From contig CAZVTT010000002.1 in the NCBI GenBank assembly GCA_964629685.1, positions 51,468 through 115,467 of the forward strand: a stretch of 64,000 bases of DNA. The letters run 5' to 3'. The notes beneath the pieces were generated by a model that was given only the letters and a program-made list of their open reading frames with translations, was not told the DNA's origin and made no database searches. Source of the stretch: an uncultured Gammaproteobacteria bacterium (GTDB lineage Bacteria; Patescibacteriota; Microgenomatia; UBA10105; UBA927). The translations under genes were made by a program, and so were the position numbers. This document shows, in pieces, positions 968 to 48,095 of this stretch; within the stretch, counting starts at the first letter, position 1, and each line of letters opens with the position of its first letter.

Positions 968-1966
968 ATGTTGGAAACATTTAAGCACCCATCATGGTTC
1001 TCAGTGGCCAAAGGCTTTACCGCGCGGTTGATTCATCAACCGCGGACTACCTTACGGCAAGTATCTTTGGAACAGGCTGCGTTCGCAGGAAATGAAACGG
1101 CAATTTCCGATTTATACTCTTCACTGGAAAGTCCAACGGTTATAGAATTTCGGAAAGCCGCAACCGCCATCAGGTCATCCGAACGGCAGACGACGGTGCA
1201 ATCATACAATTTTGAAAGAACCCGCCAATGGTTTGTCATGATTGAACGGGTTGGGTTAAAAACCGGTAAAGGGGTAAGTGTGGCAGCCGTAAACGAGTCC
1301 AAAAAAGTGATAACGGCTATGGCAGATTTAAGTGCCAAACATCCAAGGTTTTCTTCACTGGGGCAAGCAGATTTATACGCTACGTTTCTGCAAAGTACGT
1401 CACCTGTTATCAGACAAGCGGCGAATGACGGATTTGGTGCGTTGGGATTTATGCAGGCAGTAACGGTATTCGGATCATTAACCGAGTCACAGGATAGGTT
1501 TTTGGCTGAAAACAGGGTAACACCGGATCTCAGGCAAATATTGGTACAATCAGGTCAGTTTGATGTTGCGGAATTTGCCGGAAGAGCGACGGCACTTGAC
1601 CATATATTCCAACGCGGGTTGCGAATGCAATATCTTAAAGATATTCAGACGTTGACCGGCAGCCTGCCTCCGGGGTATGAAGCTATGGATTTGCATCAGA
1701 TATCCGATTTTGATCTGGATGCGATGCAGAGTGTAGATACGTACGATACCCGCAGACTACAACTCACGACGGAATTACAGCAGACATTGCTTTCCCCGAG
1801 GGGGTATTTGCGGCGGACGGTAGATATAGGCTTGCGCTTGTATGGAACATTTTATACTGATAACAGCGATGTCCTTGCACCGCTCGCGCCTGCAATGCAA
1901 GCGGGAATGTTTGCTGATGTGTGGGAAAAATTCAGCAGTGGTCTGCCGTATTCGCAATCTGCATAA
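968..1966 (+). CDS. hypothetical protein
   Basis: 332-aa ORF with no recognised motif; tightly packed behind proS. Confidence 0.55.
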   Translation: MLETFKHPSWFSVAKGFTARLIHQPRTTLRQVSLEQAAFAGNETAISDLYSSLESPTVIEFRKAATAIRSSERQTTVQSYNFERTRQWFVMIERVGLKTGKGVSVAAVNESKKVITAMADLSAKHPRFSSLGQADLYATFLQSTSPVIRQAANDGFGALGFMQAVTVFGSLTESQDRFLAENRVTPDLRQILVQSGQFDVAEFAGRATALDHIFQRGLRMQYLKDIQTLTGSLPPGYEAMDLHQISDFDLDAMQSVDTYDTRRLQLTTELQQTLLSPRGYLRRTVDIGLRLYGTFYTDNSDVLAPLAPAMQAGMFADVWEKFSSGLPYSQSA

Positions 1967-2022
1967 GTAGTACCCTCTGATTGTTGTCCGGAAGTGCTTC
2001 AGGTATACTAGCGGGTAATCGT

Positions 2023-2847
2023 ATGAAAACAGTAGTCACACATATCGGTCCTGATTTGGATGCATTAACCAGCGTGTGGTTAACGAAGTCATTTATTCCC
2101 GGATGGGAAGAAGCGGTAGTGGCGTTTGTTCCCGCCGGTACCACTTTAAAAGGTATGCCTCCCGATGCTGATCCGGAAATCAGGCATGTAGATACGGGAT
2201 TCGGGAAATACGATCACCATCAAACAAATGCCGATACCTGCGCCGCCCGGCTAGTATACGAGGAAATTAAACAGTTACACGGTGATGACCCCGCACTCCT
2301 GCGTTTGGTTCAGGTGGTAAACGATGTGGATCATTTTCGTGAGGTATTCTATCCGAATCCGACGGCGGATTTTTGGGATTTTTCGCTGGTCACCCAAATA
2401 GACGGATGGCGGTTAATTTATCATGACGATCCGCTTAAAATTGTGGCTTTAGCAATGGATTGTTTAGATGCGGTATATAAATCATTTCAAAATAAGGTAT
2501 GGGCGGAAAAAGAGTTGACGGAAAAAGGTATTTCATTTACCTGCGAGTGGGGCAAAGCCCTCGCCATCGAAACGACCAACGACGAGGTGGTGCACCTGGG
2601 ACAGAAAATGGGATATGTTATGGTGATCCGGAAAGATCCCAAGAAAGGGTACCTGAGGATTAAGGCTTTGCCACAAGACCATGTCGACCTAGCGCCGTAT
2701 TATGAAATGTTAAAAGCCGCAGAACCGCAAGCTACCTGGTTTTTGCATGCCAGTCATCATATGGTATTAAACGGCAGCAGTAAAAATCCTGATATGCGTC
2801 CATCCATGCGTCCGCTGGCGGAAATAATAGACGTATTCAAAAAATAA
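2023..2847 (+). CDS. DHH-family phosphoesterase (NrnA-like nanoRNase/pAp phosphatase-like)
   Basis: Motif I HIGPDLDALTS (HxxPDxDxxxS) and the DHH motif (GFGKYDHHQT). The ATG at 2023 is preferred over the TTG at 1981 used by the ORF track. Confidence 0.7.
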   Translation: MKTVVTHIGPDLDALTSVWLTKSFIPGWEEAVVAFVPAGTTLKGMPPDADPEIRHVDTGFGKYDHHQTNADTCAARLVYEEIKQLHGDDPALLRLVQVVNDVDHFREVFYPNPTADFWDFSLVTQIDGWRLIYHDDPLKIVALAMDCLDAVYKSFQNKVWAEKELTEKGISFTCEWGKALAIETTNDEVVHLGQKMGYVMVIRKDPKKGYLRIKALPQDHVDLAPYYEMLKAAEPQATWFLHASHHMVLNGSSKNPDMRPSMRPLAEIIDVFKK

Positions 2848-2855
2848 GGAGGTCT

Positions 2856-3350
2856 ATGGCAGGTGCTCTAAAACAAGAACTGGTGCAGATTATAAACCCA
2901 GATGCCAAAAATTTTATCTTCGGTCAATCGCATTTCATAAAAACGGTAGAGGATCTTCATGAAACGTTAGTTTCATCCGTTCCCGCAATAAAATTCGGTG
3001 TAGCTTTTTGCGAGGCTTCCGGACCACGGTTAATCCGAAAAACCGGAACCAGTGCGGAAATGATGGAATTGGCGGTGAAGAACGCCCGGGCAGTCGGTTG
3101 TGGCCACACGTTCTTTGTGTTTTTGGATAATGCTTTTCCCATAAATGTGGTAAATGGAATTAAAGCCGTTCCGGAAGTTGTGCGTCTTTTTTGCGCGACG
3201 GCAAACCCCGCACAAGTAGTCGTAGCCGAGTCGGATCAGGGACGGGGAGTACTTGGTGTTATAGATGGTGCTTCACCTCTCGGAGTTGAGGATAAAGCAG
3301 GAGAACAGGCAAGGAAGGATTTTTTACGGACCATCGGATACAAACTGTAA
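2856..3350 (+). CDS. small conserved protein resembling the adenosine-specific kinase family (PF04008-like)
   Basis: 164 aa; perfect RBS aaggagg; GQSHFIKTVEDLHE...GCGHTFFVFLDNAFPINVVNGIKAVPEV pattern recalled from PF04008. The family assignment is from memory and not verified. Confidence 0.5.
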   Translation: MAGALKQELVQIINPDAKNFIFGQSHFIKTVEDLHETLVSSVPAIKFGVAFCEASGPRLIRKTGTSAEMMELAVKNARAVGCGHTFFVFLDNAFPINVVNGIKAVPEVVRLFCATANPAQVVVAESDQGRGVLGVIDGASPLGVEDKAGEQARKDFLRTIGYKL

Positions 3351-4478: not shown

Positions 4479-4901
4479 TTGTCCGTTAGCAGTTTACCCA
4501 TGACTACTATTTCCGTTCTCTTTCAAACAGAATCACATTTCCCGGTTCCTACCAAAGTGGTAAAGGAAGCCGTTACGGCAGCTTTGGAAAAACGGGTAAA
4601 AGGAAACGTGGAAGTCAGCGTTACGATAGTGGGTGATCGACGAATGAAAGATCTTAATTCAAGTTACCGGAAAATAGAAGATACTACCGATGTGCTTTCG
4701 TTTCCCCAAAATGATCCGTCTCAGAAAGCTTACCCCTTTGTGAATCCTCCGGATAATACCCTGTATTTGGGAGACATCGTCGTTTCTTATCCGCAGGCAG
4801 TCCTGGAAGCTGCGCATGAAAACAAAATGGTCGATGCCAAAATAGTTGAACTTGTGCTGCATGGTTTGGATCACCTTTTGGGGATACATCATCCCGAATA
4901 G
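4479..4901 (+). CDS. ybeY: rRNA maturation endoribonuclease YbeY
   Basis: Metal-binding HGLDHLLGIHH motif (HxxxHxxGxxH); VLSFPQNDP. Confidence 0.85.
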   Translation: MSVSSLPMTTISVLFQTESHFPVPTKVVKEAVTAALEKRVKGNVEVSVTIVGDRRMKDLNSSYRKIEDTTDVLSFPQNDPSQKAYPFVNPPDNTLYLGDIVVSYPQAVLEAAHENKMVDAKIVELVLHGLDHLLGIHHPE

Positions 4902-4964
4902 TACCGGTGTTTTTTCGGAATAGGGGGTTTTCCTTTTTTCCGAATTCCTTCTATACTGTACTCC

Positions 4965-6419
4965 ATGTCCTTCTATAGAAAATACCGGCCCCGTGTGTTC
5001 GCGGAATTGGATAACGCGTCGGTCCGCGATACATTACATTCTTTTCTGAAAAAAGAAAAAACGGAATTGCCCCATGCTTTTTTATTCTGCGGAACCCGGG
5101 GGACAGGAAAAACCACTGCTGCGCGGTTAATTGCAAAGTTATTTACCTGTGAAAATCCCAAAAAAAGCGGAGAGCCCTGCGGCGCATGTGAAGCCTGCGT
5201 GGGTATTGCCGACGGTAACTATATAGACGTATTGGAAATAGATGCAGCCAGTAATACCGGAGTAGATAATATTCGGGATTTACGGGATAAAATAATGCTG
5301 TCTCCCAGTCGCGGGAAGTGGAAGGTATATATTATCGATGAGGTGCACATGTTATCGACAGGCGCCTTTAATGCGTTGTTGAAAACACTGGAAGAACCTC
5401 CCGGTCACGCCGTATTTATACTCGCAACTACCGACCAACATAAGGTTCCCGCTACGATTCAGTCTCGCTGTATGACTCTGGTGTTTAAGCGGCCGACGCT
5501 GGCAGAAATTTCCGGTGTGCTTAACAGGATTTCTGCTTCAGAAAAAATAGATATAACGCCGGAGGCAGTAGATTTGATTGCCAATATTGCCGATGGGTCA
5601 TTTCGGGACGCAGTGAAATTGCTTGAGCAGGTAGGATTGTCAGCCAACACGGTAACACGAACGGAAGTGGAAAACGTGTTGTCCATGAGCAACGCGGATA
5701 CTATCGTACAGTTTACGGATGCGGTATTAAAACGACAGGCAAAACAGGCATTAACACTACTGAATACTGCGGTAACGGAAGGAAAAGATTGTAAATCATT
5801 TTTAACTCAGGTACTGGCAGGGTTAGAGCAAAGACTTACCGCGCAGGTTACGGGCTCAGCCGCAACAGGTTGGGTCCTCACGGATTTAACTGATGTTATC
5901 AGAAAATTATCCCTTGCCTACGGGGAAATGAGATATACGTCTATTCCGCAGCTACCCATAGAAATAGCCGTTGTAGAATTCTGTGAAGCCGGTGCAGTGA
6001 GTAAACCGAAAGCAGTACCACCGGTATTGCCGCCGCAAAAACCGGCACCGGTTCCGTCCGCACCAGTTGCACATGCCGTTCCTGCGGCAAAATCATCCGT
6101 TCCCGCGCCGACGGTTCGGGAAGCAGTACCGGAAGTGGAAATTGCCCCTATCTCTACCGGATTGATTACGTTGGAAAAACTGCAGGAATACTGGAAGGAA
6201 ATAATAGACGCCATGAAAACGGTAAATCACTCCGCGGCCGGAATGCTCCGGTCTACTAGACCAAAAGCGGTAGCAAATGGTATAGTTACCATCGAAGCGT
6301 TTTACACGTTCCATCAGGAGCGATTGTCAGATTCAAAGGTAAAGGACGGTTTGGCAGGCACGCTTAAAAAATTGTTTGGTGAACCCGTAAAAGTGGAAGT
6401 TGTGCTCGGCAAAAAATAA
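4965..6419 (+). CDS. dnaX: DNA polymerase III subunit gamma/tau
   Basis: Walker A GTRGTGKTTAARLIAK; CGACEAC zinc module; IIDEVHML; Pro/Ala-rich linker. Confidence 0.9.
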   Translation: MSFYRKYRPRVFAELDNASVRDTLHSFLKKEKTELPHAFLFCGTRGTGKTTAARLIAKLFTCENPKKSGEPCGACEACVGIADGNYIDVLEIDAASNTGVDNIRDLRDKIMLSPSRGKWKVYIIDEVHMLSTGAFNALLKTLEEPPGHAVFILATTDQHKVPATIQSRCMTLVFKRPTLAEISGVLNRISASEKIDITPEAVDLIANIADGSFRDAVKLLEQVGLSANTVTRTEVENVLSMSNADTIVQFTDAVLKRQAKQALTLLNTAVTEGKDCKSFLTQVLAGLEQRLTAQVTGSAATGWVLTDLTDVIRKLSLAYGEMRYTSIPQLPIEIAVVEFCEAGAVSKPKAVPPVLPPQKPAPVPSAPVAHAVPAAKSSVPAPTVREAVPEVEIAPISTGLITLEKLQEYWKEIIDAMKTVNHSAAGMLRSTRPKAVANGIVTIEAFYTFHQERLSDSKVKDGLAGTLKKLFGEPVKVEVVLGKK

Positions 6420-21117: not shown

Positions 21118-21308
21118 TGAAAAAACGATTAGTCAGACCACGCAAAGGCCGTATGGTAGCAGGGGTTTGTCTGGCAGTGGCGGATTATTTTTCGGTTGAT
21201 CCCACAATCGTGCGTTTAGTTTGGGCATTCCTCTTGCTTCCGGGAGGTTTGCCGGGATTTATACCGTACGTACTGTGTTGGATTATTATCCCTGAGGAAC
21301 GGTCATAG
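21118..21308 (+). CDS. PspC-domain protein
   Basis: MKKRLVRPRKGRMVAGVCLAVADYFSVDPTIVRL (PspC N-domain); 3' end overlaps the convergent kinase gene. Confidence 0.7.
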
Positions 21309-22566
21309 AGCCATCGCGGGGGGCGAGCGGTAATAAGAGTTTAAACGAGGAGCCGACGCCCGGTTCACTTTTTTCCAAAACCAGGTCACCTTTCATAAGT
21401 AATGCCAATTTTTTGGCAATATAAAGTCCAAGTCCCGTACTCTTGGTAGTTGCCATTGATCGGGATGCGCCGATCTGTTGAAATTTGCGGAAAAGTAACC
21501 TGTGATTTTCTTCTGCAATGCCGTTCCCGGTATCGCTTACTATTGTGGCCACAAATGAGCCTTCAATTTTATGAGTGACTTCTATTCCGCCCTGATGTGT
21601 GTATTTAATGCCGTTACTTATCAGATTGGTAAGTATTTCCTGAGTTTTGTCCCGATCACCCATAACTTTGGGAATCAGTTCGGTAATCGTATGATTTATA
21701 TACAGTTTATGTTCCTTGGCTTGAATTTCCGATTTGCCGATAACTTCTTTTACTAAGAGCGATAGGTCGAACGGTTCGCGTTTTAGTTCAATGCGGCCTT
21801 GTTCTATGCGCGATACGCTGAGATAGTCGTTTACGAGCAGCATCAGATGAGCGGTGTATTCCAGGGTCTCTTTCAGCATTTCCCGGGCTTTGTCCTTTTG
21901 TAGCGTATCAAAATCGTTAACCACTAAGGAAAGCACGGCCTGAATTGTGGTAAGCGGAGAACGAAGTTCGTGTGCGGCTGCGGAAAAGAAGGCTTTCTCT
22001 TCCTCAATATCTTTAAATTCCTGGGTACCATCCCGCAGAATTAATACGATGGAACTTGTTCCGTCAGGGTTTTTTAGTGGAGTTACCGTACCGCTAAAGG
22101 GTACTTTGGTTGTTCTGTTGGTCACAAACGTCCATTTTGGAAATGTGGCTAAGTGTCCCAGTAATCCTGCCTGGATTGCATCGAACTCAGGTTCTCCTTT
22201 TTGGTTTGTAAACTGAAGGACGTCGCGATATTGTTTTTTTAAGGTGTCAACGCGGTACAATCCCGTTAATTTTTCTGCTGCCGGGTTAAATAAAGAAATT
22301 ATTCCGGACTGATCAAGTACGATGACTGCTTGTTCAATATCCCGAATAACCGTTCCCGATAGTATCTGTTCGCGGTCAGTCTGTTGTAGTGCGTCCAGAT
22401 TTTTCTGGGCCATTTTTAGTTGTGCCTCCAATTGTACGATAGTTAACGAAGATTGTTCCTGCTTTTTTTCGAGTTGGGTTGCTCGGGCAAAATGGAAAAT
22501 TACACCGGCCACAAGAACGGCGATAAGCACTACAAACAGAATGATCAGTACGGCAATAACGGTCAT
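21286..22566 (-). CDS. sensor histidine kinase (TM + PAS + HisKA + HATPase_c)
   Basis: H-box AAAHELRSPLTTIQ; N/G boxes (NLISNGIKYT; DTGNGI; GLGLYIAKK); N-terminal TM helix. No adjacent response regulator. Confidence 0.85.
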   Translation of the reverse strand: MTVIAVLIILFVVLIAVLVAGVIFHFARATQLEKKQEQSSLTIVQLEAQLKMAQKNLDALQQTDREQILSGTVIRDIEQAVIVLDQSGIISLFNPAAEKLTGLYRVDTLKKQYRDVLQFTNQKGEPEFDAIQAGLLGHLATFPKWTFVTNRTTKVPFSGTVTPLKNPDGTSSIVLILRDGTQEFKDIEEEKAFFSAAAHELRSPLTTIQAVLSLVVNDFDTLQKDKAREMLKETLEYTAHLMLLVNDYLSVSRIEQGRIELKREPFDLSLLVKEVIGKSEIQAKEHKLYINHTITELIPKVMGDRDKTQEILTNLISNGIKYTHQGGIEVTHKIEGSFVATIVSDTGNGIAEENHRLLFRKFQQIGASRSMATTKSTGLGLYIAKKLALLMKGDLVLEKSEPGVGSSFKLLLPLAPRDGSMTVPQG

Positions 22567-37054: not shown

Positions 37055-37381
37055 TTATGCGTATGTATTCGCGAATTTTTCTATTTCAGCCATGATGGGA
37101 AGTACAGCCTGTCCTTTTACGGTTAAAACATAGGTGACGGATAATTTATCTACCGTTTCTTCCTGTCGCCGGATAATGTTATCCTGTTCCAGTTTTTTTA
37201 ATCGATTGGTGAGTGTCGTAGGATTAAGTCCGCCCAAATCCCGCTGCAGTTGGCAAAATCGTTTTTCTCCGTCCCGTAGCGCCTGAATCAGCGCCAGGGT
37301 CCAGTAATCACCCAGCATTTTTAAGCCCTCGGCTGAGCAGTGCGGTTTTTTCCCGGGAGACGATCCTGTATGATTTTGCAT
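37055..37381 (-). CDS. HxlR-family (MarR-like winged helix) transcriptional regulator
   Basis: CSAEGLKMLGDYWTLALIQALRDGEKRFCQLQRDLGGLNPTTLTNRLKKLEQDNII; divergent from the FMN reductase. Confidence 0.8.
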   Translation of the reverse strand: MQNHTGSSPGKKPHCSAEGLKMLGDYWTLALIQALRDGEKRFCQLQRDLGGLNPTTLTNRLKKLEQDNIIRRQEETVDKLSVTYVLTVKGQAVLPIMAEIEKFANTYA

Positions 37382-37463
37382 AGTTGACACTGCTATAAAA
37401 TCTATAGTACTATAAATACTATAGTATTAGGGTGTTTCAGTCAATATTTTATAAAGGAGTCCT

Positions 37464-38051
37464 ATGTCTACGCAAGCATCAACCCCAATTTCTCTTCAGG
37501 TTATAATCGGCAGTACCCGGGAAGGCCGATTTAGCGAAAAGCCGGCCGGTTGGATTTTTAAAGAACTGCAGAAACGCAGTAACGTACAGGCGGAACTTGT
37601 CGATTTACGGGATTATCCGTTACCATTTTTTGAAGAAGGAATCTCACCCTCAATGATGAAGGAACCTTATGCGCATCCCGTGGTGGCAAAGTGGACGAAA
37701 AAAGTCGCAGAGGCAGACGGATATATTATAGTAACCCCGGAGTATAATCACGGCTATCCTGCGGTACTTAAAAACGCACTGGACTATGTGTACAAAGAAT
37801 GGAACAGAAAAGCTGTGGGATTTGTCAGTTATGGTTCGGTTGGAGGTGGAAGATCTATCGAACAACTGCGGCAGGTTGCCGTAGAATTACAAATGGCTCC
37901 GGTTCGACCATCTGTGCATATTACCTGGGCGGAATATATGGCCGCAGTAAAAGGGCAACCGGACGCATTTGCTCCGTTGGAACAGCAGGCAAATGTGTTA
38001 CTGGATCACATCATCTGGTGGACTACCGCCTTAAAGGTTGCCAGAACATAA
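37464..38051 (+). CDS. NADPH-dependent FMN reductase (flavodoxin-like fold)
   Basis: IIGSTREGR...; YIIVTPEYNHGYPAVLKNALDY. Confidence 0.85.
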   Translation: MSTQASTPISLQVIIGSTREGRFSEKPAGWIFKELQKRSNVQAELVDLRDYPLPFFEEGISPSMMKEPYAHPVVAKWTKKVAEADGYIIVTPEYNHGYPAVLKNALDYVYKEWNRKAVGFVSYGSVGGGRSIEQLRQVAVELQMAPVRPSVHITWAEYMAAVKGQPDAFAPLEQQANVLLDHIIWWTTALKVART

Positions 38052-38382: not shown

Positions 38383-39792
38383 TTATCTCTGCAGTGTTAA
38401 CGTTGCGGTAACCGGTTTATCCGGTCTCATAACTGCTAGCACAGCGGGCTCTGGTGAGTTGGTTAAGGCTATGTCGTACCGTGAAAGCGTCATTGCTACC
38501 AGTGCCGGTCCTTCCAGCATTGCCAACGGAGCACCTATGCAGCTCCGTGGGCCCATGCCAAATGGAATATACGTTCCCGCTTTCTGAGATTCGTTCCGAA
38601 TAAATCTCAGCGGGTTAAACTCTTCGGGATTCTGCCAATGACGATTATCATGGTGCATAATGTACGGACTTATAACAATGGTCCGTGCGATGGGGACGAT
38701 GCGGCCCTTAGTAAGTTCAAGCTGACGTGTGGCTCTACGGCTAAATACCCAAACAGGCGGATGAAGCCGCATCGCTTCCTTAAAGCACATTTTCGCCATT
38801 TCCATTCCCCTAAATTGTTCAACTGCTGGCCGTCCTGTCGCTTCGTTCGCCTGTAACCGTATTGTCTTCACGTGTTCCGGTTGGGTATGAAGTTCGTTAA
38901 TTGTCCAAATAGCGGCGTTTGCTGTTGTTTCATGACCGGCGACGAAAAATCCGACGACTTCGTCAATCATCTCCTGTCTGGTAAATTTCTCCGGGTTATC
39001 CCGGTGTGCCTGTATTAAAGATGACAATAAATTCTGTCTATCGGGGGTGGCATGTGCGAGCATGTCTTCCGCAAAAGCCCGTAGATAGGTAATACTTTCC
39101 TGGGCTTTTCTGTAACCGGAAAATGCGAAATTACGGAGTATCCAGGGAAGTCCTGCACCCCTGACGGCATCGCTATAGTATTGAAATACGGTACTTATGG
39201 CTCCCCCCAATTCTTGAGCTTGCTGCGTATTTATCCGGTAATCAAATAAGGCTTCTGCGATGATTCCCGCAGCGAGGTTATTCAAACTTTGGTGCAGATT
39301 ATCTATATGAATTGTACCGTCGGGTAAGGCAGTTCTTTCCCAGTCCGTAAACATCTCACGGGTTTGTCGTGAGACTACCTCCATGTATCCGTCAATCATG
39401 GTACGGTGAAATGCAGGTTGGGATATGGCCCTATGTATCATCCATTGATCCCCGCCGATTACTCCAAACAGATTATCGCCGTACAGTTCCCGGAAAATTC
39501 TGATATCCCGTCCGTCCCTGAGTACGTCGTCGCTATAGGTGGTTAATACTAATCTGATATCTTCGGGGTCACTCAGGAGAAATACGCGCTTAGTTGCCAG
39601 ATCAAATTCTACAAAATCTCCATACTGATCCTGTACGTTTAGCAGTTCATTATACGGATCGCGCGCTAAAGCATAACCGGTTCGGATGGTATCAATGCCC
39701 CGGATGACGGTAGTGTCACCTTCTTTAATCATAATTTTCGGCGTATTGTACCGGAACGTTGCTGATTTCACAACCATTACCGTCAGTCCCAA
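38383..39792 (-). CDS. cytochrome P450 monooxygenase
   Basis: Haem-binding FGMGPRSCIGAPLA (FxxGxRxCxG); EAMRLHPP (ExxR); AGHETT (I-helix). Confidence 0.9.
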   Translation of the reverse strand: MGLTVMVVKSATFRYNTPKIMIKEGDTTVIRGIDTIRTGYALARDPYNELLNVQDQYGDFVEFDLATKRVFLLSDPEDIRLVLTTYSDDVLRDGRDIRIFRELYGDNLFGVIGGDQWMIHRAISQPAFHRTMIDGYMEVVSRQTREMFTDWERTALPDGTIHIDNLHQSLNNLAAGIIAEALFDYRINTQQAQELGGAISTVFQYYSDAVRGAGLPWILRNFAFSGYRKAQESITYLRAFAEDMLAHATPDRQNLLSSLIQAHRDNPEKFTRQEMIDEVVGFFVAGHETTANAAIWTINELHTQPEHVKTIRLQANEATGRPAVEQFRGMEMAKMCFKEAMRLHPPVWVFSRRATRQLELTKGRIVPIARTIVISPYIMHHDNRHWQNPEEFNPLRFIRNESQKAGTYIPFGMGPRSCIGAPLAMLEGPALVAMTLSRYDIALTNSPEPAVLAVMRPDKPVTATLTLQR

Positions 39793-39814: not shown

Positions 39815-40792
39815 TTAGTATACAGCCTTTACGTTGGTGTAATTTATGGTTTCTTCGGCTATATTGGCGATATAACTCCTGATCCGTTCTATGCTGTCCT
39901 CAATCATAATATTCAGTGCGGATTTGGATACGCTTTTTATGGACATGTATTCGTTCTTTGGATGTGATTCATAGAGGTCCAAAACCTGATGGGCTTTTCG
40001 TTTATCTGTAGACGCCACAGTAGCTTTCAGCAGTGAAAAATATTCATCGAGCTTAGTCAGATTCGCGTGTTCAAATTTATTGAGCTGAATCTTTTCATTC
40101 TCCTTTAATAACAGAATAGTAGAAGCGATCCGGACCATATGGTCTGCCATACGTTCCAGACGAATTGCTACATGTTCATAATAATGTAGATCAAGAAGGG
40201 GTAGGTCTGCCGGTTGCTCCTGAACAATGGAATAGAGCATACGGTTAAACTGCCTTAGCATCATCAGATGAATACGGTCAACTTCCACATCACGTTCGAC
40301 GACGTCTTTGGCAAGTCTTTTATCCTGATGTTCGACAACATGTGTAACATCCTGATACATGGAGTAAACCAGTTCAGCCATTTTCATACAATACTCGGGA
40401 GCTGTTATGCGGGTACTGGCTACATTTTTCATGACAATTTGTTGCGAGGTCTGTTCAAATAGTTCAAAGCCGAATAGTTTATATGAGGTGGCACGTACAA
40501 ACGCCCGTTGTTCATACGTTATTGCTCTGGCTTGTACTACTATTTCTTCCACTCCCGATACAAACATGCCGATTATTTCCCGAAGTACGTGCGTATTACT
40601 TAAATAATCAATCGTGATAACGGCCCGGGCGGGATCTTTACTTTTCCGCGATCGGATGAGCAATTGTCCGCCGGGAAGCGTATCAATATTTACGATTCCT
40701 TTATCTTCCAGCTGATGGTGTAGTATCCATTCTTTTGGCAGGGTTACTATGTAGCTGGAACCTCCGGTCTTTTGTATACAGCGTGTTTCCAT
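39815..40792 (-). CDS. PhoU-domain regulator with N-terminal SpoVT/AbrB-like swapped-hairpin domain (archaeal-type phosphate uptake regulator, COG0704-like)
   Basis: N-terminal GGSSYIVTLPKEWILHHQLEDKGIVNI then two helical PhoU-like repeats. Family call from pattern memory. Confidence 0.55.
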   Translation of the reverse strand: METRCIQKTGGSSYIVTLPKEWILHHQLEDKGIVNIDTLPGGQLLIRSRKSKDPARAVITIDYLSNTHVLREIIGMFVSGVEEIVVQARAITYEQRAFVRATSYKLFGFELFEQTSQQIVMKNVASTRITAPEYCMKMAELVYSMYQDVTHVVEHQDKRLAKDVVERDVEVDRIHLMMLRQFNRMLYSIVQEQPADLPLLDLHYYEHVAIRLERMADHMVRIASTILLLKENEKIQLNKFEHANLTKLDEYFSLLKATVASTDKRKAHQVLDLYESHPKNEYMSIKSVSKSALNIMIEDSIERIRSYIANIAEETINYTNVKAVY

Positions 40793-40986
40793 ATGGTTAT
40801 CTCTGTAGATCTATAGATGACTATATAGTTGCGAATTTAGATCTTTAAGACAAGACAATTCCTTCATTACGATCAATAATCTTATAGTATTTATCTTATT
40901 TTGTCTGCGGTAATGATTATTTAGCATAAATATATATTAACAATTAAATATATAGATATCATAACGTAAAGAGAAAGTACAGTCCT

Positions 40987-43900
40987 ATGCCTGTAGAAAG
41001 ACAATTTACTCCGGAACAAGTAAGACCTGATATTGCCACACCCCGTATTCAGGAACACTTTACGGCGTTAAGCCTAGTCCCTCCGGAAACGCCGATTGAA
41101 CGGGGTGATTTATTTACTGCAGTCACCGATACATTGCAGGTCCCGGTGAATACGTTGCAACTCCTCGAACCGTTGTGGGATAAAGCAGTTCAGGAACGGG
41201 GACGATTGGCAGATGAAACCTTTCGAAATGAATTTGTGGCTGATTTCCTGACGGAATGGACGGATGCCGTGCTGAGTGCACCGGATATTACCGTTTCCGA
41301 TAAAGCCGTTCGACTGTTTCATCATCTATCAGTTCCCGAGGATACAGGTGAACGGATTTTGGAAGTGTTGCGGAAGCCGGGAACGATTCACAAACGGAAA
41401 ACGCAGATATTGGAAGATGTTTCCCTGGTTGCTGCAGCCGTTGCGGAAAGTCAGGAACTCTCATTGCCTGTTGCACATGCATTCACGGAAATTTGCCTAC
41501 AAGTACGGCCGTTGTTGGGTCGTAAAAAAAAGGTACAGCTTGAACATGCGGTCGCGACAGTTATAGATTCATTGCGCGAAAACGCCCCGTATCAGTCAGC
41601 TGCGGTATATATGGCTTTACACGATGGCATGTACGCCCAAGACCAACAGGGAGACGTGCAGGTTGGGAAGAAAATAAACGTCCGGCGGATTTCCCGTCAA
41701 ACTCAGTTTTTACCGTACTTACTGCAAACACTTCCGCAGCGTGAATTTGACCGGGTAGGACAAGTTGTTCGGACAGCACTAACGGATAGTAAGGGTGTAA
41801 CCGCGGCAGAACTACAGGTACTCGATTCGTCACTGGCGGATATTCCACCACGCGTATTTCGGGAAATGATGGATTCGTTCACACAAACCGGCTACGTAAA
41901 GAAGAACGGCAACGAGAAGTATTCATTGACGAGTACGGGTAAGCTGCGTGATCATCTTGGATTCGAAGAAATAAACCGTGTGCAGGTAGCAAGGGAAATG
42001 CAGGATAGCGGTGCCGTAACCGGAAAAACCATAAAAAGTATACAGGATATCGTTTCCATATACCGGCACAATCGGGAAGAAATAAAGGTTTCCGAACGCC
42101 AGGTAACTGTGAGTGGAAGCGGTTACCGTATGCTGTACCTTTCCGAATTACCCATCGGAAATAAAGATGTGGATATAGAATTGGCGGCCCGGATCGTAGA
42201 TTACTATCACAGACTTCCTGCGGATCAGCGTCCTGACGTGATTGTTATCTCCGGATTACTGCAGGGAGGTTTTCAACATCGGGACAAAAACAGAAGGGGT
42301 GCTTTGGCCATTAAAAGCGTAGATGAACAGTTACAGGCTGCTCATGTATTTATGACGCACCTGCAGACCATAGGCGTGCCTATTCTTTACAACATGAGTA
42401 ATGATGATTTTGAAATTTGTCATAATTATGCACTGGAGGCAGTCCGTATGGTGGGGGCTGCTGCCGCACCGCAGTCAGACACGGATAAATCATTTATCAG
42501 TTATTGGAATATTGACCGGTTAAAGCAGACGCGTGAGTGGGATATTCATTTAAGTTTCCAGCTAAATGTCGCGTTTCCCTATATGTTGCGGTTGGGTAGA
42601 CGATTACGGTCTGCAGATGAAGTGGCGGAATTTACCGACGGTAAGCTACGGAGAGAAGAATATTTACTCCTATACGAAGCATATCGTGCCGGTGTGCGGG
42701 GTGAGCACGTCACTGCAGAACAGTTCGGCGGCGTAGTTGATTTGGGAGCGCTACCTTTTGAAGGCAGGATATTTCCGTTTGATATTGTTGATGACGTTGA
42801 TCTCACGGTAAAAACGGATAATCAAACATATGTGCACTACATTAAGCATAATTTTAATTTCGGGGATAAACCTATGTATCAAAACCCCACAGCTGCGATG
42901 GAAGCCAGCGTGGGTCAGCTTTCGGCCAGAGGTGAAACGGTACCCAATGTATTTACCATTCAGCATCAATTGCAGGGATTAGCACTGAGTACCGGAGAAT
43001 CCTGGGTGATTTCTACCCCAGGATTTCTCCGACCCGATATCCGGCAACGTGCAGCGGTGGCAAATATTCAAGGCGAGCCGATTCACCGGACGTTAAAAAC
43101 CAGAAGGTTGGAGCCGACACCCGGTGCGTTTACTGCAGAACAAACGGATGACGGTCGGACTATATTTCATGTTCTTACCGATAAATTTCTGGATAAAGCC
43201 ACAATAGAGTCGGACCGGTCTACGGTCGTATATTTTAACGACTGGCAAACGGGTTCCATGACGGCACAATCTGATTTACAGGCGAAGCTAATAGATATTG
43301 TGGCACACGAATTGTTACCAACCAGACCGGTATACCTAAATCTGATTGGCGATATGATTCAGGGAAGAAATTATCCCGGAATGGAATTGGAAAATAAAGC
43401 GTTGGGATTAGTTGAAATAGACGATCAGGCCAGATTTGTAACCGAAATGCTTTCATTGGGCCTGGCTGATGTATCTGCCGCAAACGTGGCAAATTTAAAA
43501 CGGGTAGGAATATTACCCGGTAATCATGAATGGAATTCTCAGTATGTAAAAACCGGAGCAGTCCATACCGGATATCTCTATGATTTCTTCAGATATTATT
43601 ATCAACTCCACGGCATTACGCCAAATGCCAAAAATTTACAATTCTACCGGCAATTACAGGCTGACCGGGATCATGTAAAGGCCTGGACCGGAATGGAAAC
43701 GGTTGCCGGATACGGTATGTTATCCCAGCATATTATTATCGAAAAAGGAGCTAAAGGAAATTCGGCTGGCGCGCCGGTATATCAGGCGCAAAATTTATTT
43801 ACCGGAGTCGGCTCCCTGGTTGAATCCGTAGACACGATGGTTGCCGGTCATTGGCATCATGGGCAGTTGGCTTTATTTAACGGAAAAGTCGCTACCATTG

Positions 43901-44211
43901 CCCCGGCTCTCGCCGGTTTATCCGGCTACGAATGGTTACGCGGATATCGTCCGCAATTGGGCGCACTGTTCATTCATCTGGGCGGGGGACGTGTGCCGGC
44001 GTTCGAATACCTCAGTGCGCAGGCGTTATACCGACATAGGATGCAGGGAAAATATTTTTCTGAGGAGCATCTCCGGTCACTAGGATTTAAAGATGATCGT
44101 CATTATGATCCGGCCAAGCATGGATTCATGTCGCGAAAGAGTGGGTTACAAAAGGCGTTATGGGATCTGAAAGATCATATTATCGGTGATTCCCATGCGA
44201 TTATTGCGTAA
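40987..44211 (+). CDS. large (1074-aa) uncharacterised protein with a C-terminal calcineurin-like metallophosphoesterase domain
   Basis: LIGDMIQGRNYPG (GDxxxxG), ILPGNHEWN (GNHE), VAGHWHHGQ (GHxHH). Degenerate earlier copy (DVIVISGLLQGG ... VPILYNMSNDDFEI). wHTH-like FTQTGYVKKNGNEKYSLTSTGKL. No signal peptide. Confidence 0.6.
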   Translation: MPVERQFTPEQVRPDIATPRIQEHFTALSLVPPETPIERGDLFTAVTDTLQVPVNTLQLLEPLWDKAVQERGRLADETFRNEFVADFLTEWTDAVLSAPDITVSDKAVRLFHHLSVPEDTGERILEVLRKPGTIHKRKTQILEDVSLVAAAVAESQELSLPVAHAFTEICLQVRPLLGRKKKVQLEHAVATVIDSLRENAPYQSAAVYMALHDGMYAQDQQGDVQVGKKINVRRISRQTQFLPYLLQTLPQREFDRVGQVVRTALTDSKGVTAAELQVLDSSLADIPPRVFREMMDSFTQTGYVKKNGNEKYSLTSTGKLRDHLGFEEINRVQVAREMQDSGAVTGKTIKSIQDIVSIYRHNREEIKVSERQVTVSGSGYRMLYLSELPIGNKDVDIELAARIVDYYHRLPADQRPDVIVISGLLQGGFQHRDKNRRGALAIKSVDEQLQAAHVFMTHLQTIGVPILYNMSNDDFEICHNYALEAVRMVGAAAAPQSDTDKSFISYWNIDRLKQTREWDIHLSFQLNVAFPYMLRLGRRLRSADEVAEFTDGKLRREEYLLLYEAYRAGVRGEHVTAEQFGGVVDLGALPFEGRIFPFDIVDDVDLTVKTDNQTYVHYIKHNFNFGDKPMYQNPTAAMEASVGQLSARGETVPNVFTIQHQLQGLALSTGESWVISTPGFLRPDIRQRAAVANIQGEPIHRTLKTRRLEPTPGAFTAEQTDDGRTIFHVLTDKFLDKATIESDRSTVVYFNDWQTGSMTAQSDLQAKLIDIVAHELLPTRPVYLNLIGDMIQGRNYPGMELENKALGLVEIDDQARFVTEMLSLGLADVSAANVANLKRVGILPGNHEWNSQYVKTGAVHTGYLYDFFRYYYQLHGITPNAKNLQFYRQLQADRDHVKAWTGMETVAGYGMLSQHIIIEKGAKGNSAGAPVYQAQNLFTGVGSLVESVDTMVAGHWHHGQLALFNGKVATIAPALAGLSGYEWLRGYRPQLGALFIHLGGGRVPAFEYLSAQALYRHRMQGKYFSEEHLRSLGFKDDRHYDPAKHGFMSRKSGLQKALWDLKDHIIGDSHAIIA

Positions 44212-44232
44212 TGCGGTGCCGGGAGGTAATTC

Positions 44233-44493
44233 ATGCGTATGTTTAGAAGAATAGTTGTTCAATCCCTATCTTTTGAAGACCAGCTGAGATATCGGTTGAA
44301 ACCTTATCTGGAAGCAAAATTAATAGAAGATTGGATTTTCCGGATGCAGGAACAATTGAAAATTATCCGGCGTGATCCAAACTGGTGGCCCAAAGGAGAA
44401 TTAGATTACAAATTATTTATTCTGGAACTGGTATCGGATGTTATCGCAGTTAACCGAGCTATGCAAAAAGGAAAGGAGGTGATTAGTCAATGA
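44233..44493 (+). CDS. small protein, paralog A of a tandem WWP-motif pair
   Basis: 86 aa; DPNWWPKGELDYKLFILELVSDVIAV; RBS gggaggtaattcATG. Confidence 0.55.
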   Translation: MRMFRRIVVQSLSFEDQLRYRLKPYLEAKLIEDWIFRMQEQLKIIRRDPNWWPKGELDYKLFILELVSDVIAVNRAMQKGKEVISQ

Positions 44494-44747
44494 ATGTATC
44501 TCCGTTGTATACGACAAATGCCTTTGAACAGGCAATGGTCAGTAATCTTACGCCGCAATTCGGTAGGAGATTAGTGCATACCTGGATATGCGAGTTGCGG
44601 GCAAATATGGTGGGTATGCATAAAGGTACTGACTGGTGGCCACGGGATGTCGAAGCGTTTACGATGTTTGTCTTGGATATTCTTACTCAGGTAGTACCGT
44701 CGTATTCCCTTTATTCCCGGGTGGGTATAAACCCGGCGGTGGAATAG
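44490..44747 (+). CDS. small protein, paralog B of the tandem WWP-motif pair
   Basis: 85 aa; GTDWWPRDVEAFTMFVLDILTQVV; start overlaps paralog A's stop by 4 nt (ATGA). Confidence 0.55.
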   Translation: MNVSPLYTTNAFEQAMVSNLTPQFGRRLVHTWICELRANMVGMHKGTDWWPRDVEAFTMFVLDILTQVVPSYSLYSRVGINPAVE

Positions 44748-44804
44748 TTAATATTGTAATCTACCGTACAAAGGCCTCATAATACGGTAAAGGGGGAAAT
44801 TATT

Positions 44805-45227
44805 ATGGAAGTTCAGGTTAATTTTTTGGCAATCTTACTTGCCGGCATCGTATCTATGGCCGTGGGATTTTTTTGGTATAGCCCTATGGTATTGGGAAAG
44901 CCATGGATGAAGTTGAAGGGGTATACCGCCGACTCATTAAAAAAAGCCCAGAAGGAAATGGGAAAACTATATGGCGTAAGTTTTGTCGTTAGTTTGATTA
45001 CGGCTTACGTGCTTTCTCATGTCATGACGCTTTCTGTTGCATTTTTTCATTATGGAAAGTTGGAAACAGGACTGATTACCGCGTTTTGGATGTGGCTGGG
45101 ATTTATGATGCCGGTACAACTGACAGCAACTATTTTCGGTGACAAAAAATGGAAACTGTTGGCAATAGACAGCGGATATCAGTTGGCATCCGTACTTCTG
45201 ATGGGGGTCGTGCTGGGGTTACTGTAA
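44805..45227 (+). CDS. DUF1761-like small membrane protein
   Basis: NFLAILLAGIVSMAVGFFWYSPMVLGKPWMKLKG pattern; 4 TM helices. Confidence 0.55.
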   Translation: MEVQVNFLAILLAGIVSMAVGFFWYSPMVLGKPWMKLKGYTADSLKKAQKEMGKLYGVSFVVSLITAYVLSHVMTLSVAFFHYGKLETGLITAFWMWLGFMMPVQLTATIFGDKKWKLLAIDSGYQLASVLLMGVVLGLL

Positions 45228-45307
45228 CATAGGGTTTTCAGTTCATTCTCGGCAATATATAATACAAATCCATTCAGGTGGATTGGTGTTACTCGTCGGA
45301 TTTCACC

Positions 45308-46366
45308 ATGAACAAAAAATTATTCCCCATTGTTATAAGTAGTCTTATTCTCGGTTTCGGTATTGTTGCGTTTGTATCTCAATTCCCCCAAAGTACTCCT
45401 CAAGTGTCTCCGTTGCCGGAAGAGACGGAGGTAGCGGAAAATCAGGGTGGTCCCGCGCTAGTGCCCCATGCATTATCGATAGAATCCTTGCGGAATGGGG
45501 AGTATCCCGGCAGCGATATTACTATAGAAAATACTCTTGCTCCCGGTTCCAATTACCAACGCTATCTGACATCGTATAAATCTGAAGGACTTAAAATATA
45601 CGCGTTATTAACCGTGCCGAACGGTACGCCTCCCGCAGGCGGCTGGCCGGCGATTGTATTTAATCATGGATATATTCCGCCGACACAGTACAGGACAACG
45701 GAGCGGTATATTGCGTATACCGATGGATTTTCCCGCAACGGATACGTACTCATCCGTCCGGATTACCGGGGACATGGAAATTCGGAAGGTCGAGCCTCGG
45801 GCGGATACGGTTCGAACGACTATACCGTAGACGTTCTGAACGCACTTGCCAGTATAAAAAAATATACAAACGTAAATCCCGAAAATATAGGTATGTGGGG
45901 TCACTCTATGGGTGGGCATATTACCCTGCGGTCGATGGTAGTTTCTAAAGACATAAAAGCCGGTGTTATTTGGGCTGGAGTAGTGGCTTCGTACCCTGAT
46001 TTGCTTTCCAAATGGCGCAGGCAAAACAATAATCTTACTCCGTTTCCTACTACGTCAAATCGCGGGGGGTGGCGACAGGGTTTACTTGCGGAGTTCGGTA
46101 CGCCTGAAGCGAATCCCGCATTTTGGAATTCAATTTCCTCTAATTCGTATCTGGCCGATATTTCCGGTCCGTTACAGTTACATCACGGGACAGCAGATCA
46201 TTCCGTACCGCACGAATTTTCGGAAATCTTGGCGGATCAGATGAAACAGGCAGGGAAGGTTGCAGAACTGTATATTTACCCCGGGGATGAACACGATATA
46301 CCCAATAATTTCAGTGTGGCCATGTCCCGTTCGATTGCGTTCTTCGATACGTTCTTAAAGCAGTAA
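45308..46366 (+). CDS. alpha/beta hydrolase, paralog of 28233-29297
   Basis: GMWGHSMGGH; shared blocks LLTVPxGxxPAGGxPAIVFxHGYIxP and YRGHGNSEG. Confidence 0.75.
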   Translation: MNKKLFPIVISSLILGFGIVAFVSQFPQSTPQVSPLPEETEVAENQGGPALVPHALSIESLRNGEYPGSDITIENTLAPGSNYQRYLTSYKSEGLKIYALLTVPNGTPPAGGWPAIVFNHGYIPPTQYRTTERYIAYTDGFSRNGYVLIRPDYRGHGNSEGRASGGYGSNDYTVDVLNALASIKKYTNVNPENIGMWGHSMGGHITLRSMVVSKDIKAGVIWAGVVASYPDLLSKWRRQNNNLTPFPTTSNRGGWRQGLLAEFGTPEANPAFWNSISSNSYLADISGPLQLHHGTADHSVPHEFSEILADQMKQAGKVAELYIYPGDEHDIPNNFSVAMSRSIAFFDTFLKQ

Positions 46367-47108: not shown

Positions 47109-47792
47109 TTACTGCGACGGAACAGCCGCAGTCAGGGCATCAAGCGCATCCTGCGTCAGAATCAGGTTGGTCAGCCGGAGCGCACGGGACGACGGGTCGG
47201 TCAGGGGCTGGAAATTCATCCCTGCCAACCAAGGCGATACCGGCGAAACGCGGTAGCTGTTGAACGCATCTACCGTCGTATCGTAGTTGCGGGTCGCTGT
47301 TGCCGCAAAATGCAGTACGATGTCGAGATTGCGGACGGCATCCAGAAATTCAGGCGACTGGGCGAGTTCCGGGACGGCGGTGTTGCCGGTCAGGAAACTG
47401 TGAGCGTTCCGCTTGTAGGTGTCGAGCGCCGAGAACATGGTCGCCGGTACTTGCGGGCTGGTGTCCCATGCCGATCTCCATGTATCGTAGGTGCGGTTGA
47501 ATGTCGTCACGGCACTGTTATCGGCGGGCGCAAGCTGATCTACCAGCGATTTCACTTGCTCGACGGCATCGGGAACCGGAACCATCATGGCACTGTACGC
47601 CGCCGCCGCATTGTTCGCATCGGTTTGCATGGTAGCAAGCGTACTGTTCGCGCCGGGAAGTCCGACGAGGGTAAGCACCACGCCCACGACGAGCGCGATG
47701 AACAGGAACTTGTTGCGCCGGCTCAGACGCAAAAAGAGATTCAGAAAGACGTTGCCGCCAGTCTGACCGGTGGGTTTGGTAGTAGCTGTCAT
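47109..47792 (-). CDS. lemA: LemA-family protein
   Basis: N-terminal TM; C-terminal RNYDTTVDAFNSYRVSPVSPWLAGMNFQP matches the LemA signature (RYNxAVxxYNxxIxxFPxxxxAGxxGFxP). The gene is markedly GC-richer than its neighbours. Confidence 0.8.
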   Translation of the reverse strand: MTATTKPTGQTGGNVFLNLFLRLSRRNKFLFIALVVGVVLTLVGLPGANSTLATMQTDANNAAAAYSAMMVPVPDAVEQVKSLVDQLAPADNSAVTTFNRTYDTWRSAWDTSPQVPATMFSALDTYKRNAHSFLTGNTAVPELAQSPEFLDAVRNLDIVLHFAATATRNYDTTVDAFNSYRVSPVSPWLAGMNFQPLTDPSSRALRLTNLILTQDALDALTAAVPSQ

Positions 47793-48095
47793 GATCGTTA
47801 CTCCATATCACTAACTCTTCGGATAGTTCTGCAGCGATTCTTGGATGGGTTTGTTTCTCCTTTCGTATTGAAGACGTAATAGTTAAGACTTCAGAAAATC
47901 TGAACTATTACGCCTTCAACGGATAAGGACCACTGAAGTTGTTAAAGTACAAAGTATAGTTTTACTGTACACAGCTTGCTGTGTAGGTAAAATATAATAA
48001 TTGCTATAGGGCAATTGACCGCATTATAGGCGTGCAGGGGTGAAGTAGCAAATTATTATTTCGGGGCTTTACAAACAGGAGTAGAATTGGGGTAT

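What the first reader, a model, noticed from the sequence alone, without database searches (positions are those of the whole stretch)
40793..44747. Uncharacterised three-gene module: 1074-aa multidomain calcineurin-like phosphoesterase plus two overlapping small paralogs, behind an AT-rich palindromic control region
- The 1074-aa ORF carries clear metallophosphoesterase signatures in its last ~300 aa: LIGDMIQGRNYPG, ILPGNHEWN and VAGHWHHGQ.
- About 400 residues earlier sits a degenerate copy (DVIVISGLLQGG ... VPILYNMSNDDFEI) in which the GNHD histidine is replaced.
- A winged-helix-like segment (FTQTGYVKKNGNEKYSLTSTGKL) is also present.
- I cannot place the N-terminal ~700 aa in any family, and there is no signal peptide.
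- Immediately downstream are two 85/86-aa paralogs sharing a (D/G)xxWWP(K/R)...F(I/V)L(E/D)(L/I) core. Their reading frames overlap by 4 nt (ATGA), which implies translational coupling.
- The 194-bp upstream intergenic region is >75% AT. It holds two AGATCT palindromes (one extended to TAGATCTA) and AAATATATA repeats.
- A PhoU/AbrB-type regulator is transcribed divergently from this region.
- A large enzyme-domain protein plus small duplicated partners under a dedicated regulator resembles phage-defence or effector modules. It could equally be a Pho-regulated phosphoester scavenger. Either way it looks undescribed.
Basis: partly seen in the sequence, partly recalled or inferred. Interest (0 to 1): 0.72.

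Follow-up and report, generated by a model that had tools for sequence, protein, structure and literature searches.

The report
Tandem dead/active DP1-like phosphoesterase gene
The 1074-aa gene belongs to a rare, unnamed protein family of mostly candidate-phyla bacteria and some archaea: a likely DNA-binding nuclease whose active domain most resembles the proofreading subunit of archaeal DNA polymerase D, often paired with an AbrB-PhoU regulator, while the two small downstream genes are lineage-specific extras.

Summary
The sequence observations hold: the 1074-aa ORF, two overlapping 86/85-aa paralogs, a divergent AbrB-PhoU gene and an AT-rich palindromic spacer are all present.

**The large protein.**
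- It matches nothing in Pfam, NCBIfam, PADLOC or the PDB by single sequence. A word-indexed search of 5.8 billion proteins found only itself.
- An exhaustive HMMER search found about 157 clusters of ~1000-aa relatives, in Patescibacteria, a few other bacterial MAGs, Woesearchaeota and Methanosarcinales.
- A family-alignment AlphaFold model (pLDDT 86) and profile comparisons give this layout: variable helical N-terminus, winged helix, a degenerate metallophosphoesterase (MPE) copy with a helical insert, then an intact MPE.
- The intact MPE has invariant D752/D789/N846/H847/H915/H955/H957, and motif I is DxQ.

**Context.**
- The AbrB-PhoU gene is conserved divergently upstream in six loci, with shared spacer motifs.
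- The small paralogs occur only in this lineage and one close relative.
- There is no defence signature and no viral context.

**Verdict.** This is a new architectural variant of a known superfamily, most likely a regulated intracellular nuclease. The "three-gene module" and the defence reading are not supported.

The parts
39815..40792 (-). AbrB-fold + PhoU-domain regulator (325 aa), divergent from the large gene
   Evidence: Pfam PhoU E 8.7e-14 and MazE_antitoxin (AbrB fold) E 1.5e-8. Orthologues at 39-49% identity sit in the same divergent position in L007, L013, L017, L018 and L019.
40793..40986 (.). 194-bp divergent control region, 74% AT. Contains palindromes TAGATCTA/ATCTATAGAT (40806-40818) and ACTATATAGT (40820-40829), a second AGATCT (40839-40844), a conserved central TATAGTA (40883-40889), and AAATATATA / ATATAG repeats (about 40929-40955).
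   Evidence: Sequence. Alignment of six orthologous spacers. The k-mers AAATATATA and ATATATAG are shared by at least 5 of 6 spacers, against 0 of 300 dinucleotide shuffles. TATAG[TC]A sits at position 89-130 in all six. A promoter-like AAGACA-17-AATAAT lies at 40852-40880.
40987..44211 (+). 1074-aa gene, member of an unnamed ~1000-aa family
   Evidence: ORF. 157 clusters at E<=1e-3 and 85 at E<=1e-30, conserved over residues ~240-1070. AlphaFold2 model with the family alignment: pLDDT 86.2, pTM 0.80.
41710..41946 (+). Winged-helix domain (residues ~242-320)
42091..43191 (+). Degenerate metallophosphoesterase-like copy with a ~110-aa helical insert (residues ~369-735). Metal ligands of motifs I, II, III and V are lost; only the motif-IV-equivalent H621 is kept.
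   Evidence: hhalign of family sub-profiles, co-linear and in register: 378-478 vs 743-852 (E 3.3e-5, Prob 72%) and 612-733 vs 906-1012 (E 7e-4, Prob 26%). H621 is nearly invariant.
43216..44022 (+). Intact metallophosphoesterase domain (residues ~744-1012): D752-x-Q754, G788-D789, G845-N846-H847-E848, H915, G954-H955-x-H957
44233..44493 (+). Small paralog A (86 aa, pI 9.6), lineage-specific
   Evidence: Paralogy E 9e-11. SD GGGAGGT upstream. Only self-hits in the database. 44% identical orthologue in a relative that is otherwise ~90% identical.
44490..44747 (+). Small paralog B (85 aa), overlaps A by ATGA, lineage-specific
   Evidence: 89% identical orthologue in the relative L028. Absent from all other family loci.

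Best explanation
The locus is a two-gene unit plus two lineage-specific passenger genes.

**The enzyme.** The 1074-aa gene encodes a cytoplasmic, metal-dependent phosphodiesterase, most probably a DNA exo- or endonuclease. One chain carries a winged-helix DNA-binding domain, a catalytically dead metallophosphoesterase (MPE) copy and an intact MPE domain. This is a built-in 'pseudo-dimer' with one active site. The active domain belongs to the DP1 / polymerase B-subunit / phage-exonuclease branch of the superfamily.

**The control.** The gene is transcribed divergently from an AbrB-PhoU regulator. That regulator probably binds the conserved ATATAG-containing palindromes at both ends of the ~200-bp spacer. 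It would then control both genes in response to a phosphate or metal signal.

**The small genes.** The two 85-aa paralogs are real, fast-evolving genes of this lineage only. They are not part of the conserved system.

**Shown:** the family, the domain layout, the conserved catalytic residues, the closest relatives, the conserved regulator pairing and the spacer motifs.

**Inferred:** nucleic-acid substrate, repression by the regulator, and the nature of the signal.
For: - Family and conservation.
- All MPE metal ligands are invariant except motif I His->Gln.
- Phage relatives are annotated as exonuclease or Pol II small subunit.
- The internal duplication is co-linear over both halves.
- Winged helix.
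- No signal peptide or TM segment.
- The regulator is conserved divergently in 6 loci, plus an AbrB-only regulator in L016 and HTH_3 regulators in L009, L010 and L031.
- Spacer motifs are conserved beyond chance.
- The small ORFs are absent elsewhere. They are kept but divergent in a close relative.
Against: - No biochemical data exist for any member.
- Motif I is DxQ rather than DxH, and the second Asp of GDxxDR is Gln. Metal content and chemistry may therefore differ from DP1 and Mre11.
- Generic small-molecule phosphodiesterases (GpdQ, Rv0805) also score well.
- The second-half duplication alignment is weak (Prob 26%).
- The regulator pairing holds in only about a quarter of the loci examined, all among the closer relatives.
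- Regulator binding to the palindromes is untested, and AT-rich shared motifs could be promoter elements.
- The orphan status of the small proteins rests on a word-indexed search, not an exhaustive one.
Confidence: 0.6

Rival explanations
1. The enzyme is a Pho-type, phosphate-starvation-induced phosphodiesterase that acts on non-nucleic-acid phosphoesters (glycerophosphodiesters, cyclic nucleotides, nucleotide-sugars or polyphosphate-like compounds) to release phosphate inside the cell.
For: A PhoU-domain regulator is conserved next to the gene. GpdQ and Rv0805 are among the good Foldseek matches. The unusual DxQ motif I suggests a modified active site.
Confidence: 0.2
2. One reading: the large enzyme and the two small paralogs form a phage-defence or toxin/effector module under a dedicated regulator.
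For: The pattern of a large enzyme followed by small, fast-evolving duplicated genes with translational coupling. The AbrB domain matches the Pfam MazE_antitoxin model.
Against: No PADLOC hit for any of the four proteins. The small genes are absent from all 21 other family loci. Neighbours are housekeeping and variable: FolD, BacA, MetRS, SecA, UvrC. There are no relatives on viral contigs. In the nearest relative another gene separates the large gene from the small ones.
Confidence: 0.07
3. The protein is a non-catalytic or accessory subunit of a replication or repair machine. It would act like a DP1/B-subunit that docks a polymerase or another partner, with exonuclease proofreading as its role.
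For: DP1 and eukaryotic B-subunits are the closest structures. UvrA and UvrC lie within 6 kb in L031.
Against: No conserved partner gene, no DP2-like or PolB gene, and no Zn-finger C-terminal-domain partner in any of about 25 loci. The catalytic residues are intact, unlike eukaryotic B-subunits. The hosts are mostly bacteria, which replicate with PolIII (DnaX is in this window).
Confidence: 0.08

Closest known systems
Archaeal DNA polymerase D small subunit DP1 (3'-5' proofreading exonuclease; PDB 5ihe, 6knb, 8ppt) and eukaryotic Pol alpha/delta/epsilon B-subunits
   Different: This family is about 1000 aa and mostly bacterial (Patescibacteria). There is no DP2 or polymerase partner nearby. 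Motif I is DxQ. The active domain is preceded by a winged helix and a dead MPE copy rather than a demonstrable OB fold: a profile of the middle domain finds nothing in the PDB. There is no Pfam DNA_pol_E_B or Metallophos hit.
Mre11 / SbcD nucleases
   Different: No Rad50/SbcC partner gene in any locus. Clearly lower scores than DP1. A single chain with one active site.
Phage 'DNA polymerase II small subunit'-like metallophosphatases / PHROG 284 exonuclease (e.g. Bacillus phage BSP38, Lactobacillus phage LfeInf)
   Same: Closest predicted viral structures: Foldseek E 1e-9, about 295 aligned columns, rmsd ~4.8. PHROG 284 E 2.3e-4 over residues 739-1002.
   Different: The phage proteins are about 400-500 aa with a single MPE. 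The family studied here is chromosomal and has no relatives on IMG/VR contigs.
AbrB-PhoU fusion regulators (COG0704-type 'phosphate uptake regulator' with an N-terminal SpoVT/AbrB domain, common in archaea; from my own knowledge)
   Same: Same two-domain make-up in the divergent gene.
   Different: Here the regulator is paired with the MPE gene rather than with a pst operon. The target and signal are untested.

Membership tests
Calcineurin-like metallophosphoesterase superfamily | Five motifs: DxH, GDxxDR, GNH[DE], H, GHxH | tested here: met
   D752-x-Q754 (His replaced by Gln family-wide), G788-D789, G845-N846-H847-E848, H915, G954-H955-x-H957. These are invariant or >=90% conserved in 63 sequences.
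Calcineurin-like metallophosphoesterase superfamily | Beta-sandwich MPE fold | tested here: met
Calcineurin-like metallophosphoesterase superfamily | Match to Pfam Metallophos-type models | tested here: not met
   No Pfam family at E<=1. The family is too divergent for the curated models.
PolD DP1 / polymerase B-subunit family | MPE domain closer to DP1/B-subunits than to other MPEs | tested here: met
PolD DP1 / polymerase B-subunit family | OB-fold domain immediately N-terminal to the phosphoesterase domain | tested here: inconclusive
   Foldseek alignments span the whole DP1 but with rmsd ~16 A. A profile of the middle beta-rich domain finds nothing in the PDB. That domain aligns instead with the second half of the MPE domain.
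PolD DP1 / polymerase B-subunit family | Partner catalytic subunit (DP2 or PolB with a Zn-finger C-terminal domain) | tested here: not met
   No such gene in the neighbourhoods of about 25 loci. Whole genomes were not examined.
Mre11-Rad50 / SbcCD | Adjacent Rad50/SbcC ATPase partner | tested here: not met
   Absent next to the gene in the window and in all fetched loci.
Known anti-phage defence systems (PADLOC-DB 2.0) | HMM match of any component | tested here: not met
   No hits at E<=1 for the large protein, either small protein or the regulator.
Type II toxin-antitoxin (MazE/AbrB antitoxin) | Small antitoxin with an adjacent toxin gene | tested here: not met
   The AbrB-fold domain is the N-terminus of a 325-aa PhoU fusion. 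No MazF-like toxin is adjacent.
Pho regulon member | Control by a phosphate-responsive regulator | not testable with these tools
   Only the adjacency of a PhoU-domain regulator is shown. Response to phosphate needs an experiment.

The most novel reading that the evidence does not exclude
This is a previously unrecognised branch of the DP1 / polymerase-B-subunit lineage outside Archaea and Eukarya. It would be a self-contained tandem dead/active MPE nuclease with its own winged helix, widespread in episymbiotic Patescibacteria and DPANN archaea. An AbrB-PhoU sensor would switch it on to break down DNA (the cell's own spare copies or imported DNA) for phosphate and nucleotide salvage. Scattered salvage genes beside family members hint at this: a deoxynucleoside kinase, a nucleoside deoxyribosyltransferase and a cytidine-deaminase-like gene.
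Probability: 0.2. Interest if true: 0.65.

Novelty: new variant of a known kind. Interest (0 to 1): 0.5.

Why it matters
- The family escapes every curated profile library tried here (Pfam, NCBIfam, PADLOC), yet it has a confident model and intact catalytic residues. It is a cheap target for biochemical characterisation and for a new family definition.
- It places a DP1/B-subunit-like phosphoesterase in bacteria. This bears on the debated history of polymerase accessory subunits.
- The fused dead+active MPE pair is an unusual way to build what Mre11/SbcD achieve by dimerising.
- If the PhoU link is functional, it would give a handle on phosphate and nucleotide economy in Patescibacteria and DPANN, organisms that depend on salvage.
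- The AbrB-PhoU gene, its operator and its target gene form a compact, testable regulatory pair.

Tried and rejected
- Word-indexed homology searches returned only self-hits for the large protein, the small-protein profile and the family profile. The family became visible only with the exhaustive HMMER search.
- Single-sequence AlphaFold2 was useless (pLDDT 36).
- BLASTP of the N-terminal half against the C-terminal half showed no duplication. Family profiles were needed.
A six-sequence C-terminal alignment worked.
- The afdb50 fold library was unavailable.
- A profile of the middle domain found nothing in the PDB, so an OB fold could not be confirmed.
- The small-protein profile found nothing credible in the PDB, PHROGs or Pfam. 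It also found nothing in family proteins or elsewhere in the window.
- Viral contig scans were negative.
- The Rfam and tRNA scans of the window were empty.
- A literature search for the SRA runs found nothing, and a search for AbrB-PhoU regulators gave no characterised example.
- The 14-bp palindrome is not enriched across the window as a whole (6 hits against 3.5 expected). Its support comes from conservation across loci.
- The window's own organism could not be named. Its genome is not among the GTDB representatives scanned.
Full report
**1. Observation**

The ORFs are as described. The large ORF is at 40987-44211 (+, 1074 aa), followed by 44233-44493 (86 aa) and 44490-44747 (85 aa, ATGA overlap). 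A divergent 325-aa gene lies at 39815-40792.

- Pfam finds PhoU and an AbrB-fold (MazE_antitoxin) domain in the divergent gene. It finds nothing in the other three proteins.
- The small ORFs are paralogs (BLASTP E 9e-11, shared WWP core). Both have good Shine-Dalgarno sequences.
- The spacer is 194 bp and 74% AT, slightly under the stated 75%. It holds two of the window's nine AGATCT sites.
- None of the three proteins has a hydrophobic segment.
- The window is ordinary bacterial chromosome, with DnaX, AhcY, CysS, HisS, HtrA and YchF. It has no tRNA or Rfam hits.

**2. The large protein belongs to a real but unnamed family**

Curated libraries and indexed searches all miss it:
- Pfam, PADLOC and NCBIfam give no meaningful hit.
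- A single-sequence search of the PDB gives nothing significant.
- The word-indexed search of 5.8 billion proteins finds only the protein itself.

The exhaustive HMMER search finds 157 cluster representatives at E<=1e-3 and 85 at E<=1e-30. Most are 920-1250 aa and align over residues ~240-1070.

Genome and metagenome scans place members in several groups:
- Patescibacteria, including Daviesbacteria and Saccharibacteria;
- MAGs labelled Gammaproteobacteria and Lentimicrobiaceae;
- a Woesearchaeota MAG and a Methanosarcinales MAG.

None is on an IMG/VR viral contig.

**3. Anatomy**

In a 63-sequence alignment the invariant or nearly invariant residues are D752, Q754, G788, D789, G845, N846, H847, H915, H955 and H957. 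This is the full metallophosphoesterase (MPE) motif set, with motif I as DxQ instead of DxH.

AlphaFold2 without an alignment failed (pLDDT 36). With the family alignment it gave pLDDT 86.2 and pTM 0.80. The model and comparisons give these domains:

| Residues | Domain | Evidence |
|---|---|---|
| 1-240 | Low-confidence, poorly conserved helical region | |
| ~369-735 | Degenerate MPE copy with a ~110-aa helical insert | |
| 744-1012 | Intact MPE domain | |

Profile-profile comparison of family sub-alignments supports the duplication:
- Residues 378-478 align in register with 743-852 (motifs I-III; E 3.3e-5, Prob 72%).
- Residues 612-733 align co-linearly with 906-1012 (motifs IV-V; E 7e-4, Prob 26%).
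- In the first copy the ligands of motifs I, II, III and V are replaced or deleted. Only H621, the motif IV equivalent, stays nearly invariant.

The support for its second half is modest.

An OB fold, as in DP1, could not be confirmed. A profile of the middle domain finds nothing in the PDB.

**4. Closest relatives of the active domain**

| Method | Best match | Other matches |
|---|---|---|
| Family profile vs PDB | PolD DP1 6knb_A, E 1.5e-6 | Mre11, SbcD at E>=0.2 |
| Foldseek vs PDB | Top nine are P. abyssi DP1, E 8e-7 to 1e-5 | GpdQ, Rv0805, SbcD, Mre11, Pol alpha and epsilon B-subunits |
| Foldseek vs BFVD | Phage proteins annotated 'DNA polymerase II small subunit' or metallophosphatase, E ~1e-9 | |
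| PHROGs | phrog_284 'exonuclease', E 2.3e-4 | |

The DP1 alignment shares motif detail: D-x-H/Q-x-G-S, GD..G...YPG and GNH. A survey of DP1/B-subunit homologues describes only archaeal and eukaryotic groups (PMC7544198, read).

**5. Genomic context**

I examined about 25 loci.

- *Small paralogs.* They are absent from all 21 family loci scanned with tblastn and an unfiltered hmmsearch (best E 0.7).
- *Downstream genes.* They differ from locus to locus and are often on the opposite strand: FolD, BacA, MetRS, UppS, SecA.
- *AbrB-PhoU regulator.* It is conserved in the same divergent position in L007, L013, L017, L018 and L019, at 39-49% identity.
- *Other divergent regulators.* L016 has an AbrB-only protein. 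L009, L010 and L031 have HTH_3 proteins.
- *Spacers.* The six AbrB-PhoU spacers are 194-243 bp and 72-80% AT, and they share several elements:
  - an ATATAG-based palindrome next to the regulator's start, perfect as ATATAGATCTATAT in L018 and TAGATCTATAGAT in the window;
  - a central C[TC]TATAG[TC]A;
  - AAATATATA(G) near the large gene's start.
- *Statistics.* The number of 8-10-mers shared by 4 or 5 of the six spacers was never reached in 300 dinucleotide-preserving shuffles. Across the whole window the palindrome is not enriched, so the evidence is conservation across loci.

**6. The small paralogs**

Database hits are only to themselves and to >=90%-identical variants. A related organism (~85% nucleotide identity; L028-L030) keeps the pair between the large gene and DUF1761.

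| Protein in the relative | Identity to the window's copy |
|---|---|
| Small B | 89% |
| Small A | 44% |
| Large protein, C-terminus | 90% |
| DUF1761 | 96% |

In that relative a 343-aa cytidine-deaminase-like gene sits between the large gene and small A.

The small ORFs are therefore real genes of one narrow lineage, and A evolves fast. Nothing ties them functionally to the large protein.

**7. Interpretation**

The best-supported reading is a regulated, intracellular, metal-dependent nuclease.
- It has its own DNA-binding winged helix and a dead MPE partner domain.
- It belongs to the DP1/B-subunit/phage-exonuclease branch of the superfamily.
- In the closer relatives it is controlled by an AbrB-PhoU regulator through conserved palindromes.

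The substrate and the signal are inferences.

Rivals:
- A small-molecule phosphodiesterase under Pho-like control remains plausible (about 0.2).
- A polymerase or repair accessory role (about 0.08) has little support.
- A defence module (about 0.07) has little support: no PADLOC hits, no viral links, and no conserved partner gene.

Scattered nucleotide-salvage neighbours hint at a role in DNA turnover for salvage. These are dNK in L013, nucleoside deoxyribosyltransferase in L034/L035 and the deaminase-like gene in L028. This is anecdotal.

**8. Verdict**

The 'three-gene module' and the defence interpretation are not supported. What is there is a new architectural variant within a known superfamily that the curated profile libraries tried here miss, with a conserved regulator partner. 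Interest is moderate.

Noticed in passing
L028:653-1684 (related organism, Logan SRR29931267): A 343-aa gene lies between the large gene and small paralog A in the nearest relative and is absent from the window. It has HGE...SCGDC motifs, a sub-threshold Pfam dCMP_cyt_deam_1 hit (E 0.007) and a weak PDB cytidine deaminase hit. It looks like a two-domain cytidine deaminase.
   Followed up: partly
L013:5990-6706; L034:9091-9525 and L035:4301-4735; L018:6242-7396; L015:10682-11779: Nucleotide-salvage-type genes lie directly beside family members in several loci: deoxynucleoside kinase, nucleoside 2-deoxyribosyltransferase, queuosine salvage protein and PRPP synthase. The association is anecdotal and was not tested statistically.
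   Followed up: no
L013:2701-4587 and 4584-5984; L014:304-1314 and 1334-3205: In two MAG loci the family gene is split into two ORFs, near query residue ~610 in L013 and ~460-470 in L014. This could be assembly frameshifts or genuine split genes. L013's halves also appear as separate cluster representatives (P0071, P0065).
   Followed up: no
window 38383-39792 (-): A cytochrome P450 gene (Pfam E 2.9e-60) starts 22 nt after the AbrB-PhoU gene's stop on the same strand, so it is probably co-transcribed with the regulator. This pairing is not seen in the other loci (tblastn).
   Followed up: partly
window 37055-38051: A divergent pair of an HxlR-type regulator (37055-37390, -) and an NADPH-dependent FMN reductase (37464-38051, +). 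An FMN reductase also lies near the family member in L031.
   Followed up: no
window 44805-46366: DUF1761 (140 aa) and an S9/S33-type alpha/beta hydrolase follow the small paralogs on the same strand, and no terminator-like site was found between the large gene's stop and DUF1761 (44211-44805). A weak terminator-like site lies inside the hydrolase gene at 45704. The small genes may belong with DUF1761 rather than with the large gene. The pair stays next to DUF1761 in the relative.
   Followed up: partly
window 21286-22566 (-): A sensor histidine kinase whose best NCBIfam matches are the phosphate sensors PnpS and PhoR, below their cut-offs. It lies about 19 kb from the PhoU-domain regulator.
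   Followed up: no
window 47109-47879: Two long ORFs overlap on opposite strands (227 aa on -, 189 aa on +) in the most GC-rich kilobase of the window (52.8%). The minus-strand ORF (227 aa) has no Pfam hit; the plus-strand ORF was not scanned.
   Followed up: no
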